Part shown: in pieces, positions 45,801 to 54,800 of the stretch | Numbering within the stretch: position 1 is the stretch's first letter | Layout of the letters: each line of letters begins with the position of its first letter | Source of the DNA: Escherichia coli | Lineage (GTDB): Bacteria; Pseudomonadota; Gammaproteobacteria; Enterobacterales; Enterobacteriaceae | Assembly (NCBI RefSeq): GCF_001677475.2 | Contig: NZ_CP015229.1 | DNA length: 64,000 nucleotides | Reading direction: 5' to 3' (one strand) | Made by a program: the position numbers

Positions 45801-48800
45801 ACTATTGATGAAGGTAACATTTTTTTAAAATAAACCTAGTTTAAGCAACAATCAGGGACAAAACAGACTATTGCATGACAAATTTCACTGTCGCGATTTG
45901 CCCCACCTCATCCATCACCAGCAATTGATAATCGCCTTTATCCATCAAATGCAGGGTCACGTTGCGCCCGCGTTCAGTTAACGGTTCGCCATTCAGAAAC
46001 CACCAGCGTTCACCTGCCCCTCCACTTGATTGCAACGGCAAAGTCGCTTCCGCTGCGCCCGGTAAACGTTTAATAATCGCGCCATCGCGAACACCTGTCA
46101 GCTGCAGTGGGAGTTGTGCATCGTGACCGTATGGCGGGCAAATTGTCGAGGCCGCTGGTAAGCGCACAGCGCGACGTTCTGATGCGGGTAACCAGGGTTC
46201 CAGCGGTAGCGGCCAGACATTTATCATTTCTTGTCGCGCCTGAGGGCAATCAGCGGCAACACGTTTGCCGTTTTGATCCAGCCAGATGGGGAAACGAATG
46301 CCATTAATGCCTTCCTGCTCCGGCAGTAATAGAGTTGGCGGCTGACTCCCGTCCAGCAGCCAGGTTGCCAGGCGGCGGCGGCAGTTACCGTCACCTTCCG
46401 GCAAAGACTGTCCGCCCGGCCAGCAGATAACGCCACGACTTACAGAGTCAGGACGTGGGTCTTCCGGCAGATTCGCACTGCGCGACAGTAAGATATTATT
46501 GACCTGATTCAACAATGGTACGGCGCTGGCAAAGCCAAACTGACCAACAACGGGCGTGCCGTCCGGTCTGCCAGTCCAGATCCCAATGACATAGCGAGCG
46601 TTAACCCCAATCGCCCAGGCATCACGATAGCCATAGCTGGTGCCCGTTTTCCATGCCAGTGGGGCGACGCGCGGCAAGGCACCATCCGGCAAGGGTTGCG
46701 CTTCATCAGCCATAATCCGGCGAATGATCCACGCAGCCCCCGACGACATTAAAGGCCGTTCAAGCAGCGGATCGTCAGGCTGTAAGCGCAATTTACCAGC
46801 CTTGCCGTGGCGAGCAAACGCGGTATAGGCCGCCGCCATATCCCCCAGTTTTGCACCAGCGCCGCCGAGAATGAGCGAAAGATTCGGTGCAGCACCGTTG
46901 GGCAAATATAACGGCAATCCAACATTGCGTAACTTTGCAGCAAACCGTTTCGGCCCATAGGCTTCCAGCACCTGCACAGCAGGTAAGTTCAGCGAGCGCA
47001 CCAGCGCCTCACTCATGCTGATCGGGCCATGAAAACCGCTGTCAAAGTTGCCAGGTCGGTAATCACCGGTACGCCGGGGGACGTCTTGCAGCAGTGATGC
47101 CGGGTGGATCAATCCTTCATCCAGCGCCAGACCGTAAACAAACGGTTTGAGCACCGATCCTGGCGATCGGATCGCATTGACCATATCAACATGACCAAAG
47201 CGTGAATCATCGTTGAGATCAACCGAACCCACCCAGCCGCGAACACGCATATCGGTATGATCAACCACGATCATCGCCAGTGAGCTGCGCGGTGGTAATC
47301 GTCCTTTCCAGTTTTGCGCCAGTTCTTCCAAACGTCGTTGAAGACCGGCATCCAGCGTAGTAACGATTTTGTCGCTTTTGCTTTTACCGAGCATCATGCG
47401 CGAAAACAGCGGTGCCAATTGCGGCATTTGTCGGGGTGCCAGCCAGATGGGTTCTTCCCTTGACTCTTTTACCTGCTCACGGGACCACACACCTTGCGCA
47501 GCCATCCGTTCGAGCACTTTATTACGCGCGGCTTCGGCACGCTCCGGCCAACGATCCGGGCGAAGACGGCTGGGCGCTTGCGGTAACACCGCCAGCATTG
47601 CCGCCTCGGAATAGCTTAAATTCGCAGGCGATTTTCCGAGATAAGCCCAACTTGCCGCACCGATCCCCTGCAACGTACCGCCAAACGGAGCGCGGTTAAG
47701 ATACAAGGTCAGAATTTCACGCTTAGACAGATGCCACTCCAGTTGCAACGCACGCCAGAGCTGGCGAATTTTGCCGCCAAATGTTTTGGGGTGAGGATCA
47801 AGCAGACGAGCAACCTGCATAGTGAGCGTGCTGCCACCGGAAATAACCCTTCCCGAAGTGAGATCTTGCCATGCTGCGCGCGCCACCGAGAATGGATTCA
47901 CCCCCGGATGCTTCCAGAACCAGCGATCTTCATAATTGATCAGCGCTTCAAGGTAACGTGGAGAAACATCTTCGATTGTTACCGGATAACGCCAGATGCC
48001 TTCCGCATCGGCAAAGCGCCAGAGCGGCGTCCCATCCTGCGCCACGACCACACGTGCGGGATTGACTTCATGCAACGGCAGAGGCCAGAGTTTATCTGCT
48101 CCCCACGCCGCCAGAATGATAATAAAGGGCGCGGCTGCCAGCGTTATCCAGCAGCCGCGTTTACTTAACAGACGAGGCATTTACGGTCTGACAATCAACA
48201 GATCTTCAGCCGCGCCGGTCGCCCGCCATTGGGGAACATACATTGATTCCACCATCGGTTGCGGTACCTGATACGTTCCCGGCGTCACCGCCCGCGCCAG
48301 ATACACCAGCGTTACCGGTTGGTATTCATCAACGGCAACCGCCGCCACAAAGCGATCGTCACGGAACTCAATGTGCTTAATGCTCGCCTGCTGCATCTGG
48401 TTCAGTAAGTTTTGCACTTCGCCACCACTTTGCTCCAGGCTGGCGCTACCGTTCGCCAGATTCTGATTTTCCAGTTCCAGACCCGCAGGCAGCAGATCCA
48501 CGACTAACGCATCCGGCACGCTGTTACTGGCTTTAACCTGCAACCAGACCAGCACCAGATCGCCGCTACGTAACGAGTCCAGCGATTTGCTCTTACCATC
48601 AGTACCAAGAATATGACGCTCGATTTGCAGCACATTGTTCGCCGGTAAAGGTGCGGATTGCGGATAACCGCTGGCATCCACACGCAGCCATAACGGCTGA
48701 TCGCCACTGTTGGTCACCTGCAAGGTGGCAAGTTGATCGCTATTCAGATTGCTGTTTTGCGCTTTCTCGCCTGTCAGCGGCTCAGCAGAGAAAGTGGTTT

Positions 48801-51800: not shown

Positions 51801-54800
51801 AGTGATAGAGGCCATTCTCCGGCTGACTAACGACACTACGCAGTACCTGCCCGTCAGGTTTAATCACGTCTAACTTGATGGGTTGATCCGGCAGAGCTTT
51901 ACCGTCTGCATCACGCAGTAAGCCGTTGAGGATTACTGTTTCACCCGGGCGATAAAGATCGCGCGGGCCAAACATAAAGAACTGTTTGCTATAACCCGGT
52001 GCACCAGCAATGTTAAATTCCGCTAAGTCCAGCGCCGGAAGTTTTAAATCGAGCAGCGTTGTCTGACCGTCTTTACGCGCCAGCAGTAATGCCGCGTTTT
52101 TATCATTTTCCAGCTGCACATGCCCCTGAGCATCACTGGTTGCCTGAGTCAGAGTCTGCCCTTTCTCATTTAATAAAGAGACTTCTATTCCTTGCTGGGC
52201 CGCGCCGTTTTCCAGACTTTGGATAAAGATATCCAGACGATTGTGATAACGGTGAGCTGAAACGCCGATATCACTTAACGTAAACAGCGTCGCGGGATTA
52301 CTGTAATCGTAACGTCCAGCCTGATTCATCACAGCCAGATACACGCCTGCCTGCTGAAGCGGTTTGATATCGCCCAGCGGCAGCAATAATTTTTCACGGG
52401 TGTTACGCGCAGGATTGAGATCAAACCGTCCGGTGTAGACCAGATCTGCCATCTGCAGCAGTTTGTCAGACTGCCAGTTCGCCAGCGAATTGCGGTATTC
52501 CCATTGGCTAATGAATGCAGGCAGAGATTCGGGCTTCACACGGAAGAAGTTAACATCGACATTGTTAACGTTGAGCGCCATTACCGGCAGCCCTTCAATA
52601 ACTTTACCAGGTAACAACGAACCACGGCTGGCAAAACCGACGCTGGGTTGGATATCGCGGGTAGTTATAGTTTTTTCGTAATCTTTACTGAAGGTTGCGT
52701 TGTTGAGTGCTTTGACCTCCTTGCCAATAGTGACGATCAAATCACGTTTCGGTTCGAGGTGGCGTAAACGCAACTCTTTAAGATTATCTGACAGCTCCCA
52801 GGCACCATCCACTTTGCCGATTTTCTTATCGACGACATGGATAACGCGTGAGAAATCCTGATCCGGGTCGAGAGGAATGGAGAACGTCAGCACCAGCGTG
52901 GCTGCGCCATCAAGTTGAACTTCAGAGAGATCCAGCAATGTCAGCGCCTTACCGGCACTCTGTTGGGCCAGTTTTTGTCGCTCCGGCGCGGAAAGTTTTG
53001 CTGAACTCACGTTTTCTGAAGAGGCCGCTTTAGTAACTTCAGAAGGCGCATCTTTTTTCACCGCTGTTGGCGCGTTATCGTTGTTGTCGCACCCTGCCAG
53101 CGCCAGCATTAGCATGCAGGCGGCTACGCGTAACTTTTTCATTTTTCATCCCTGCCACAATGGCCCGTTAGCAACGTCGAATAATTATTATGCGTGAGAA
53201 TTTACGTTATGTAATTCAGTATCACGCCCATACAATCCGAATTTTAGTGAGAATTGTGGCTCAGACAGCCAAATCAGCCTCTTTTGCTTGTCGCCTTTCA
53301 CTAAACATCCGACAATTTAGCCTAACCCCGGCAAAAATGGAGATGCCTATGTCCACGACATGGTTTGTAGGAGCCGACTGGCTCGCCGAACATATTGATG
53401 ACCCGGAAATTCAGATTATCGATGCCCGCATGGCGTCGCCTGGACAGGAAGATCGTAACGTTGCTCAGGAGTATCTGAATGGACATATTCCCGGCGCAGT
53501 GTTTTTTGATATAGAAGCGCTTTCTGATCACACTTCCTCGCTTCCGCACATGCTGCCGCGCCCGGAAACGTTCGCCGTGGCGATGCGTGAATTAGGCATT
53601 AACCAGGATAAGCACCTGATTGTCTATGACGAAGGTAATCTTTTCTCAGCCCCACGAGCATGGTGGATGCTGCGCACCTTTGGTGTAGAGAAAGTGTCGA
53701 TTCTGGGGGGTGGACTTGCAGGCTGGCAGCGCGATGATCTGCTATTAGAAGAAGGCGCAGTAGAGCTGCCGGAAGGAGAGTTTAACGCCGCGTTTAATCC
53801 TGAAGCCGTGGTGAAAGTCACCGATGTGTTATTGGCAAGCCATGAAAATACGGCGCAAATTATTGATGCCCGCCCGGCTGCACGTTTTAACGCAGAAGTT
53901 GATGAGCCTCGCCCAGGTTTACGTCGCGGACATATTCCCGGTGCACTGAATGTTCCGTGGACGGAACTGGTGCGCGAAGGCGAACTAAAAACGACCGATG
54001 AACTGGATGCGATATTTTTTGGTCGCGGCGTCAGCTATGACAAACCAATTATTGTCAGTTGCGGCTCTGGTGTAACAGCAGCCGTGGTTTTGTTGGCACT
54101 CGCGACGCTGGATGTGCCAAACGTGAAACTGTACGACGGCGCATGGAGTGAATGGGGCGCACGGGCAGATTTACCGGTTGAGCCATTGAAATAAGCTTTT
54201 TACAGGCAATAAAAAACCGCCGAATTTGAACTGACCCCATAATGTTGGACGGTTTATATTAAGCGGCTATCAGGGCCTGGGTTCGGTACTCTACCGGACT
54301 CAGGCCTTTCAGTTTCTGTTTTATTCTTTCATGGTTGTAATAGTGGATGTAATTATCGATAGCCATGCGCAACTCGCTGATATTCTTGTGTTCCATCAGG
54401 TAAAAACACTCAGATTTCAGCGTGCCGAAGAAGCTTTCCATCACCGCATTGTCATGACAGTTCCCCTTCCTTGACATGCTCTGTTTCAGACCAGCCTCCT
54501 TAAGCCGGTTCTGATAATGCGCCATCTGATATTGCCAGCCCTGATCTGAGTGGAGCAGCGGGTATTCGTCTTTACCCAGTACAGATACAGCCTTCAACAG
54601 CATGTCATCCACCATCGACAGAAGAGGACGGGACGCCATCTGATACGCAACTATTTCTCCGTTATACAGATCCAGAACGGGGGACAGATACAGTTTTTCT
54701 CCGCTGATTTTAAATTCCGTGACATCTGTTACCCACTTCTGGTTGGGCTTATCCGCACTGAACTGCCGGTTCAGCACATTACCCGCCACTTTCCCATACC

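What the first reader, a model, noticed from the sequence alone, without database searches (positions are those of the whole stretch)
45868..53142. yfhM-pbpC: alpha-2-macroglobulin coupled to PBP1C
A 1653-aa alpha-2-macroglobulin-like lipoprotein with an intact thioester motif (GCLEQ) is immediately followed by pbpC with no gap (yfhM stop 48181-48183, pbpC start codon ends at 48180), which implies translational coupling. This is the conserved pair proposed to act as a periplasmic protease trap plus cell-wall repair enzyme. It is known biology, but the intact CLEQ thioester is worth noting.
Basis: partly seen in the sequence, partly recalled or inferred. Interest (0 to 1): 0.3.

Follow-up and report, generated by a model that had tools for sequence, protein, structure and literature searches.

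The report
Known E. coli yfhM–pbpC operon
This is the well-studied E. coli gene pair for a periplasmic protease trap (alpha-2-macroglobulin, ECAM) and the cell-wall enzyme PBP1C, intact and ordinary, with one apparently undescribed extra: a conserved RNA hairpin in the first codons of pbpC.

Summary
On the minus strand, yfhM (53142..48181, 1653 aa) ends in TAA, and the ATG of pbpC (48180..45868, 770 aa) follows directly. YfhM has a lipobox (LAGC, Asp at +2), the full bacterial macroglobulin domain set, the bait region, and an intact thioester motif (YPYGCLEQ, Cys1187–Gln1190). It differs from crystallised K-12 ECAM at 22 residues, none of them in a functional motif. PbpC scores as the NCBIfam PbpC equivalog and keeps all its catalytic motifs. 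The pair occurs once in 5425 of 5426 complete E. coli genomes, so this is known biology.

Comparative data support the translational-coupling inference but do not prove it. In about 70 Enterobacteriaceae junctions the stop-to-start gap is 0–1 nt in nearly all, and none has a Shine-Dalgarno sequence. More distant lineages show 1- or 4-nt overlaps.

One feature was new to me. A GC-rich hairpin in pbpC codons 8–17 (48159..48130) is kept across genera by compensatory, often non-synonymous, changes: 92% of cells paired and 10 of 13 pairs covarying. Its U-tract is not conserved. I read it as an element that defines or stabilises the 3' end of the yfhM message, or tunes pbpC expression. Its function is untested.

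The parts
48181..53142 (-). yfhM CDS, 1653 aa: inner-membrane-anchored lipoprotein alpha-2-macroglobulin (ECAM)
   Evidence: ORF list and translation. Pfam bMG1, A2M_bMG2, bMG3, MG2, bMG5, bMG6, A2M_BRD, A2M, TED_complement, CUB_A2MG and bMG10 all score above their cut-offs. PDB 4rtd, 4ziq and 5a42 match at E=0. There are 22 aa differences from K-12.
53086..53142 (-). Lipoprotein signal peptide, lipobox LAGC (Cys18) and Asp19 at +2 (inner-membrane retention signal)
   Evidence: Read directly from the translation. [quoted passage not shown] The role of Asp at +2 rests on established knowledge of Lol sorting.
50254..50376 (-). Bait region, residues 923-963 (RYGADIYDIYGQVIEGQGRLAALRFGGDGDELKRGGKPPVN)
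   Evidence: The residue range comes from the ECAM structure paper: Arg923-Leu942 is disordered after cleavage, and Phe947-Asn963 rebinds the CTMG domain. It is identical to K-12; the nearest difference is V969A. Pfam A2M_BRD covers residues 759-905.
49573..49596 (-). Thioester site YPYGCLEQ: Cys1187 and Gln1190, plus the pocket tyrosines Tyr1183 and Tyr1185
   Evidence: Residue roles are from PMC4498604.
48238..48363 (-). C-terminal MG domain motifs RDDR (48352-48363) and ESMY (48238-48249). They cover the thioester and then bind the cleaved bait.
   Evidence: Motif roles are from PMC4498604.
48178..48183 (-). Stop/start junction TAA|ATG, gap 0 nt, no Shine-Dalgarno sequence upstream
   Evidence: The gap is 0-1 nt in nearly all of about 70 Enterobacteriaceae junctions. 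The anti-SD duplex energy is +0.4 kcal/mol here, against -6.0 for yfhM and -7.2 for ndk, and none of 70 relatives reaches -6.
48130..48159 (-). Conserved GC-rich RNA hairpin in pbpC codons 8-17: CGCGGCUGCUGG-AUAACG-CUGGCAGCCGCG, 12 bp, about -22 kcal/mol, starting 18 nt after the ATG
   Evidence: Flagged by the terminator-like scan and folded. Covariation: 92.2% of cells paired against 76.5% in shuffles (0 of 500 shuffles reached it), and 10 of 13 pairs changed on both sides. There are 48 distinct stem variants. It is the only conserved structure between -90 and +100. It has no Rfam family.
45868..48180 (-). pbpC CDS, 770 aa: class A penicillin-binding protein 1C. Motifs: GT51 EDRWFWKH at 47908-47931, SVLK (Ser342) at 47146-47157, SLN at residues 396-398, KTG (511-513) at 46642-46650.
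   Evidence: Pfam Transgly, Transpeptidase and BiPBP_C match. NCBIfam NF008414 PbpC equivalog scores 1562.6 bits against a cut-off of 1121.
53187..53215 (-). Candidate sigma-70 promoter for yfhM (ATTACA-17-CATAAT), 45-73 nt upstream of the ATG
   Evidence: A consensus match only: 9 of 12 positions, with total sites in the region no more frequent than in shuffles. It is not evidence of function.

Best explanation
This is the chromosomal yfhM-pbpC operon of an E. coli-group genome.

YfhM (ECAM). It is exported as a lipoprotein and held on the periplasmic face of the inner membrane (Cys18, Asp at +2). When a protease cuts its bait region (residues ~923-963), the protein rearranges. The Cys1187-Gln1190 thioester leaves its Tyr/Met pocket and acylates a lysine on the protease, which is then trapped. 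This mechanism was shown for K-12 ECAM in the literature. I infer it here from 98.7% identity with every functional motif intact.

pbpC (PBP1C). It encodes a bitopic class A PBP whose glycosyltransferase and transpeptidase motifs are all intact. Its proposed role as a repair enzyme working with ECAM is still a hypothesis.

Expression (inferred). pbpC has no ribosome-binding site of its own, and its start codon abuts the yfhM stop. It is therefore most likely translated by ribosomes that terminate on yfhM and reinitiate.

Hairpin (shown conserved; function inferred). A stable hairpin 18 nt inside pbpC is maintained by compensatory changes. It most likely marks or protects the 3' end of a yfhM-only message. 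It could do this as a leaky terminator or as an exonuclease barrier after termination further downstream. Either way it would keep PBP1C output well below ECAM output.
For: Identity of the genes. The same locus is annotated as yfhM and pbpC in K-12 and in 5425 of 5426 complete genomes, always single-copy and chromosomal.

Selection: dN/dS is 0.069 for yfhM and 0.085 for pbpC.

Mechanism and residue roles: PMC4498604 and PMC3328433.

Coupling: pbpC lies directly downstream on the same strand in all ~70 Enterobacteriaceae loci that reach the 3' end of the alpha-2-macroglobulin gene. The stop-start gap is 0 or 1 nt in nearly all of them. No Shine-Dalgarno sequence is present in 70 of 70. Distant lineages, with PbpC 33-49% identical, show a 1-nt gap or overlaps of 1 or 4 nt (L084, L090, L092, L093).

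Hairpin: covariation statistics. G.U pairs outnumber A.C mismatches 49 to 16, which points to the sense RNA strand. It is the only conserved structure at the junction. There are 48 stem variants, with amino-acid pairs such as RSR/AGA, RGC/AAA, KRR/AAF and RNC/AVA. The control region, the yfhM signal-peptide coding sequence, shows no conserved structure. Where the genes are separated, a terminator-like hairpin follows the A2M stop codon (L070, L080). The hairpin plus tail passes the d'Aubenton-Carafa terminator rule in 13 of 71 relatives, for example Klebsiella.
Against: No experiment here or in the papers I could read shows co-transcription, coupling, or an RNA 3' end at the hairpin. The held supplements of the Term-seq and SMRT-Cappable-seq papers contain no yfhM or pbpC entry.

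In the window the U-tract is poor (CCCUUUAUUA), and the d'Aubenton-Carafa score is -31, so this is not a canonical terminator.

Recoding the first 25 pbpC codons synonymously lowers folding stability only modestly: median z is -1.7, the window is -1.5, and K-12 is +0.5. Much of the complementarity is therefore written into the amino-acid sequence itself (Arg/Lys codons opposite Ala/Phe codons).

A functional link between ECAM and PBP1C has never been shown. A 2020 review still calls it speculation.
Confidence: 0.85

Rival explanations
1. The two genes are neighbours but are expressed independently. pbpC would be transcribed from a promoter inside yfhM and translated by de novo initiation, so the abutting codons would carry no regulatory meaning.
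For: A genomic-SELEX site for a minor sigma factor lies inside yfhM (K-12 position 2649866). Some relatives separate the genes by 53-287 nt, with a terminator-like hairpin in between (L070, L080, L081). PbpC homologues exist without an upstream alpha-2-macroglobulin gene (L087, L089).
Against: None of the 70 Enterobacteriaceae pbpC starts has a Shine-Dalgarno sequence. The 0-1 nt spacing is conserved across genera whose flanking sequence has diverged. No promoter-like site was found on the minus strand in the last kilobase of yfhM.
Confidence: 0.12
2. The hairpin is a by-product of protein coding. An Arg/Lys-rich cytoplasmic tail (CGC, AAA) followed by an Ala/Phe-rich membrane helix (GCG, UUU) is complementary by the nature of the genetic code, and the structure has no function.
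For: Synonymous recoding barely weakens folding. Hairpins are also seen just inside pbpC in unrelated GC-rich lineages, where any sequence folds well (L092).
Against: Exact Watson-Crick register is kept through non-synonymous double changes in many lineages. Sliding the pairing partner by 1-3 columns drops pairing from 92% to 30-60%. The yfhM signal-peptide region has the same charge-then-hydrophobic layout but shows no conserved structure.
Confidence: 0.2
3. The hairpin acts on translation rather than on the RNA 3' end. Sitting just beyond the footprint of a ribosome at the pbpC AUG, it would stop post-termination ribosomes from sliding downstream. It would thereby set the efficiency of reinitiation, or pause RNA polymerase until reinitiation has occurred.
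For: The spacing between the start codon and the stem is fixed at 18 nt across genera, even where the stop-start gap differs. The U-tract is not conserved.
Against: Lineages with an intergenic spacer place their hairpin right after the A2M stop codon and far from the pbpC start (L070, L080). In Mangrovibacter the hairpin is shifted about 20 nt further into pbpC and carries a good U-tract.
Confidence: 0.2

Closest known systems
E. coli K-12 ECAM (YfhM, b2520; PDB 4rtd, 4ziq, 5a42) and Salmonella SaA2M (PDB 4u48)
   Same: Same length (1653 aa), same domain order, same lipobox, identical bait region, and the same CLEQ thioester, pocket tyrosines and RDDR/ESMY motifs.
   Different: There are 22 substitutions relative to K-12, none in a functional motif. 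No complete E. coli genome holds this allele at more than 98.0% nucleotide identity, while the neighbouring 7 kb reaches 99.3%.
E. coli PBP1C (PbpC, b2519; NCBIfam NF008414, TIGR02073)
   Same: 770 aa, with GT51, transpeptidase and BiPBP_C domains and all catalytic motifs.
   Different: 17 substitutions. Three of them (L20I, L21I, F22I) lie in the membrane anchor just downstream of the hairpin.
Type II bacterial alpha-2-macroglobulins (E. coli YfaS, P. aeruginosa MagD)
   Same: Large periplasmic proteins built from MG domains.
   Different: According to PMC3328433, type II proteins in many species lack the CxEQ thioester. They also sit in an operon with further lipoprotein genes rather than next to pbpC. 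The window protein has CLEQ and a pbpC neighbour, so it is type I.
Intercistronic hairpins that set unequal expression within operons, and stem-loops that define 3' ends after Rho-dependent termination (recalled from general knowledge and the abstract of PMC6061677)
   Same: A stable stem-loop lies immediately downstream of the gene expected to be more highly expressed.
   Different: Here there is no intergenic space. The stem-loop is encoded inside the first 17 codons of the downstream gene, so it constrains that gene's protein sequence. No 3'-end data are available.

Membership tests
Type I bacterial alpha-2-macroglobulin (ECAM/SaA2M) | Array of MG domains with a bait-region domain, TED, CUB and a C-terminal MG domain | tested here: met
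   Eleven Pfam families match above their cut-offs and in the expected order. Full-length PDB matches at E=0.
Type I bacterial alpha-2-macroglobulin (ECAM/SaA2M) | CxEQ thioester motif with its protecting pocket (Tyr1183, Tyr1185, Met1634, Tyr1635) | tested here: met
   YPYGCLEQ at residues 1183-1190 and ESMY at 1632-1635.
Type I bacterial alpha-2-macroglobulin (ECAM/SaA2M) | Lipoprotein signal peptide with an inner-membrane retention residue | tested here: met
   LAGC lipobox with Asp at +2.
Type I bacterial alpha-2-macroglobulin (ECAM/SaA2M) | Gene placed next to pbpC | tested here: met
   The same holds in all ~70 Enterobacteriaceae loci that reach the 3' end of the A2M gene.
Type I bacterial alpha-2-macroglobulin (ECAM/SaA2M) | A thioester bond actually forms, and cleaving proteases are captured covalently | not testable with these tools
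   Shown biochemically for K-12 ECAM (Doan & Gettins 2008, as cited). Inferred here from sequence identity.
PBP1C (class A PBP, PbpC equivalog) | Score above the curated cut-off of the equivalog model | tested here: met
   NF008414 scores 1562.6 bits against 1121. TIGR02073 scores 913.2 bits against 494.2.
PBP1C (class A PBP, PbpC equivalog) | GT51 motifs (EDxxFxxH, GGSTLTMQ), transpeptidase motifs (SxxK, SxN, KTG) and the BiPBP_C domain | tested here: met
Translationally coupled gene pair (termination-reinitiation) | Stop and start codons overlap or lie within a few nucleotides of each other | tested here: met
   TAA|ATG with a 0-nt gap. The arrangement is conserved.
Translationally coupled gene pair (termination-reinitiation) | The downstream gene lacks its own ribosome-binding site | tested here: met
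   Anti-SD duplex energy is +0.4 kcal/mol, and 0 of 70 relatives reach -6.
Translationally coupled gene pair (termination-reinitiation) | Downstream translation depends on upstream translation | not testable with these tools
   This needs reporter fusions with premature stop codons in yfhM.
Intrinsic (Rho-independent) terminator | GC-rich stem-loop | tested here: met
   12 bp with 9 G-C pairs, -22.3 kcal/mol.
Intrinsic (Rho-independent) terminator | U-tract immediately 3' of the stem | tested here: not met
   The window tail is CCCUUUAUUAUC, with T-score 0.76 and d = -31. The rule is met in only 13 of 71 relatives.
Intrinsic (Rho-independent) terminator | Mapped RNA 3' ends at the site | tested here: inconclusive
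   No yfhM or pbpC entries in the supplements held for four 3'-end or full-length mapping papers. Absence from truncated text files is not evidence of absence.

The most novel reading that the evidence does not exclude
The hairpin in pbpC codons 8-17 would be a previously undescribed cis-acting RNA element, conserved across Enterobacteriaceae. It would be embedded in coding sequence and would shape the N-terminal amino-acid sequence of PBP1C. Its role would be to uncouple the protease trap from the cell-wall synthase: it would end or stabilise a yfhM-only transcript and let only a controlled fraction of ribosomes or polymerases continue into pbpC.
Probability: 0.4. Interest if true: 0.45.

Novelty: already known. 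Interest (0 to 1): 0.3.

Why it matters
The gene pair itself is textbook-level for specialists. ECAM has crystal structures and a worked-out trapping mechanism, and the link to PBP1C has been a published hypothesis since 2004.

The comparative work adds two testable points. (1) pbpC has no ribosome-binding site in any of the 70 Enterobacteriaceae junctions examined, so PBP1C synthesis is probably tied to ECAM synthesis. This bears on the still-open question of what PBP1C is for. (2) A covarying hairpin sits inside the first codons of pbpC. It gives a concrete handle (stem-breaking and compensatory mutants) for asking how the ratio of the two proteins is set.

Tried and rejected
1. RNA 3'-end and operon data. 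I searched for yfhM and pbpC in the supplements of Adams 2021 (PMC7815308), TERMITe 2025 (PMC12207403) and SMRT-Cappable-seq (PMC6131387). There were no entries. Choe 2022, Dar & Sorek 2018 and Conway 2014 have no held supplements.

2. Source papers not held. Budd 2004, Doan & Gettins 2008, Li 2014 and Schmidt 2016 are not in the library. I could not read the original operon statements or obtain ECAM:PBP1C abundance ratios.

3. Literature on the hairpin. Searches for pbpC with 'terminator' and with 'hairpin' returned nothing relevant.

4. Long-range pairing at the start codon. In the single-sequence fold, a helix sequesters the pbpC start codon. It is not conserved in the 72-sequence consensus fold, so I rejected it.

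5. DNA-level palindrome or operator. I rejected this because the stem sequence varies freely (48 variants) while pairing is kept, and because G.U pairs outnumber A.C mismatches 3 to 1 on the sense strand.

6. Antisense ORFs of 133-196 aa inside yfhM and pbpC. None matches a Pfam family, so I treat them as chance ORFs.

7. Rfam. There is no match at the junction even at E <= 1.

8. Synonymous-recoding test. It gave only weak support and is reported as evidence against.

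
Full report
CHECK OF THE OBSERVATION

On the minus strand, 53142..48181 encodes 1653 aa and 48180..45868 encodes 770 aa. The junction reads AGACCG TAA ATG CCT, so the stop and start codons abut with no gap. Translation gives YPYGCLEQ at residues 1183-1190, with CLEQ at window 49584..49573. The N-terminus is MKKLRVAACMLMLALAGCDNN, that is, a lipobox LAGC with Asp at +2.

WHAT IT IS

YfhM matches eleven Pfam families in the order expected for a bacterial alpha-2-macroglobulin: bMG1, A2M_bMG2, bMG3, MG2, bMG5, bMG6, A2M_BRD, A2M, TED, CUB and bMG10. It aligns over its full length with the crystallised E. coli protein ECAM (4rtd, 4ziq, 5a42) and with Salmonella SaA2M (4u48) at E=0.

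Against K-12 there are 22 amino-acid differences. None falls in the bait region (923-963), the thioester site, the pocket tyrosines, or the RDDR and ESMY motifs of the C-terminal MG domain. Residue roles are from PMC4498604.

PbpC has Transgly, Transpeptidase and BiPBP_C domains. It passes the curated cut-off of the NCBIfam PbpC equivalog, 1562.6 bits against 1121. It keeps EDRWFWKH, GGSTLTMQ, SVLK, SLN and KTG.

The gene order matches K-12: ispG-rodZ-rlmN-ndk-pbpC-yfhM, then divergent sseA. The 7.3-kb segment occurs once, on the chromosome, in 5425 of 5426 complete E. coli genomes and is annotated as yfhM and pbpC. Both genes are under purifying selection, with dN/dS of 0.069 and 0.085 against K-12. 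Antisense ORFs inside them match no family.

HOW IT WORKS

The trapping mechanism comes from the literature, not from my own tests. ECAM is a periplasmic protein anchored to the inner membrane. Cleavage of its disordered bait region releases the thioester domain from the C-terminal MG domain. This exposes the Cys1187-Gln1190 thioester, which bonds covalently to the attacking protease (PMC4498604, PMC3328433).

PBP1C has no known role under laboratory conditions. Its partnership with ECAM in defence and repair was proposed by Budd et al. in 2004 and was still described as speculation in 2020 (PMC7554673). One overexpression phenotype has been reported (PMC6131605).

IS pbpC TRANSLATIONALLY COUPLED?

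I fetched 78 related loci from one-genome-per-species contigs, with A2M identity of 49-97%. In every locus that reaches the 3' end of the macroglobulin gene (about 70), pbpC follows on the same strand.

The stop-to-start distance is 0 nt (TAAATG) or 1 nt (TAAnATG or TAAnGTG) in nearly all. It is 3 nt in Mangrovibacter and 12-27 nt in Franconibacter. In one 49%-identical Enterobacterales MAG it is about 130 nt, with a terminator-like hairpin in between.

None of the 70 pbpC starts has a Shine-Dalgarno match. The median duplex energy with the anti-SD is +0.6 kcal/mol and none reaches -6. The window's yfhM, ndk and rlmN starts give -6.0, -7.2 and -5.9.

I also examined loci around twelve distant PbpC representatives, 33-61% identical. 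An alpha-2-macroglobulin gene is confirmed upstream in seven of them. In an eighth (L093), only 77 nt of an upstream ORF is visible. Junctions vary: a 287-nt spacer with a terminator-like hairpin (L080), a 53-nt spacer (L081), a 19-nt spacer (L088), a 1-nt gap (L084), and overlaps of 1 or 4 nt (L090, L092, L093). In L085 the called pbpC start overlaps the A2M gene by 29 nt, but the true start may lie downstream. Two loci have no macroglobulin gene upstream (L087, L089), and two contigs end too close to pbpC to tell (L082, L083).

Close abutment without a ribosome-binding site is therefore old and widespread but not universal. Termination-reinitiation is the best-supported reading for the window. 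It remains an inference.

The terminator-like scan flagged a 12-bp stem with 9 G-C pairs at 48159..48130 on the minus strand. This is pbpC codons 8-17, starting 18 nt after the ATG. The junction region folds more stably than shuffled sequence, z = -4.0.

In a sequence-only MAFFT alignment of 71 distinct junctions (A1), I scored a 13-pair helix, which is the 12-bp stem plus one inner pair that most relatives add.
- 92.2% of cells are paired, against 76.5% after shuffling (0 of 500 shuffles reached it).
- 10 of 13 pairs have changes on both sides, in 135 compensatory cells against 51 expected.
- Pairing falls to 30-60% when partners are slid by 1-3 columns.

There are 48 distinct stem variants, many perfectly complementary but with different sequences. 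The codon triplets of the two arms translate as RGC/AAA (Escherichia), RSR/AGA (Enterobacter and relatives), KRR/AAF (Klebsiella), RNC/AVA (C. sedlakii), QRR/ATL (Franconibacter) and KTR/AGF (Superficieibacter). The compensation is therefore largely non-synonymous.

G.U pairs outnumber A.C mismatches 49 to 16 in the nine outer pairs, as expected for an RNA read from the sense strand. A consensus fold of -90..+100 finds this helix and nothing else. The yfhM signal-peptide coding region has the same charged-then-hydrophobic layout, yet it shows no conserved structure in the same genomes. Rfam has no family here, even at E <= 1. The searchable literature returned nothing on it.

WHAT THE HAIRPIN DOES IS NOT SETTLED

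Evidence for a role at the RNA 3' end:
- Klebsiella, Raoultella, Kosakonia/Phytobacter, Yokenella and Superficieibacter have good U-tracts and pass the d'Aubenton-Carafa rule (13 of 71).
- Mangrovibacter has a shifted hairpin with UUUUUCUU.
- L070 and L080, where the genes are separated, have terminator-like hairpins right after the A2M stop codon.

Evidence against a simple intrinsic terminator:
- The U-tract is not conserved. Only 19 of 71 relatives have 5 or more T in the first 8 nt.
- The window's tail is CCCUUUAUUA, with d = -31.

One caveat applies to selection on the RNA. Synonymous recoding of the first 25 pbpC codons reduces stability only modestly (median z = -1.7). The complementarity is therefore carried mostly by the amino-acid sequence. 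This fits an RNA constraint that has shaped the protein. It also leaves room for the by-product explanation.

My ranking of the readings:
- About 0.4: the hairpin defines or stabilises the 3' end of the yfhM message, as a leaky terminator or an exonuclease barrier.
- About 0.2: it modulates reinitiation or polymerase pausing.
- About 0.2: it has no function.
- About 0.2: something not considered here.

I found no 3'-end mapping data for this locus.

COMPARISON WITH WHAT IS KNOWN, AND NOVELTY

The locus is a member of the type I (thioester, pbpC-linked) class of bacterial alpha-2-macroglobulins. It is not the type II YfaS/MagD class, which according to PMC3328433 lacks CxEQ in many species and sits in a lipoprotein operon. 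Every sequence-level membership feature I could test is met.

The finding as written is already known. The SD-less junction and the covarying hairpin are, as far as the held literature shows, undescribed details of a known operon.

VERDICT

The biology is ordinary and well characterised. Interest is 0.3, carried mainly by the hairpin as a testable lead.

Noticed in passing
window 54229-55667 (orfB 55098..54259 and orfA 55649..55095, both minus strand): An IS3-family element (annotated as ISEcB1 in E. coli genomes) with orfA and orfB sits between sseA and ryfA. By alignment with K-12 it is inserted in the DNA that corresponds to the antitoxin sRNA gene timR, about 25 nt from the 5' end of ryfA. 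The window also lacks about 486 bp that K-12 has there.
   Followed up: partly
window 55693-55978 (+) and 41450-41541 (-): Full-length Rfam matches: ryfA (263.7 bits; the mRNA of the TimP toxin in K-12 annotation) and sroE (116.6 bits).
   Followed up: no
window 45868-53142 compared with 38000-45000: No complete E. coli genome among 5426 is more than 98.0% identical over yfhM-pbpC, whereas the adjacent housekeeping 7 kb reaches 99.3% (185 genomes at 99% or more). dS against K-12 is 0.09-0.12 here and 0.08 for ndk and rlmN. The source is probably an outlying E. coli-group lineage, and this locus carries a somewhat rarer allele.
   Followed up: partly
window 53190-54194 (+): The mechanical ORF for sseA is 334 aa. 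The K-12-equivalent start is at 53349 (281 aa, MSTTWFV...), which leaves a 206-bp divergent intergenic region shared with yfhM. That region holds the only candidate yfhM promoter.
   Followed up: partly
L070 (about 5562-5735) and L080 (5714-6000): In two more distant Enterobacterales the A2M and pbpC genes are separated by about 130 and 287 nt. A terminator-like hairpin lies 11-14 nt after the A2M stop codon. The L080 spacer contains further strong structures that I did not examine.
   Followed up: partly
L087 and L089: These PbpC homologues (42-48% identical, with the BiPBP_C domain) have no alpha-2-macroglobulin gene upstream. L087 is flanked by acetyltransferase genes, and L089 has a divergent DsbA-family gene upstream. 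The pairing is therefore not obligatory.
   Followed up: no
L092 3499-3600 and L093 74-170: In two distant lineages, one with 66% GC, pbpC overlaps the upstream gene by 4 nt (ATGA). Each again has a strong hairpin within the first ~25 codons, and in L093 it is followed by TTTTTT. The upstream gene in L092 encodes a CAEQ thioester.
   Followed up: partly
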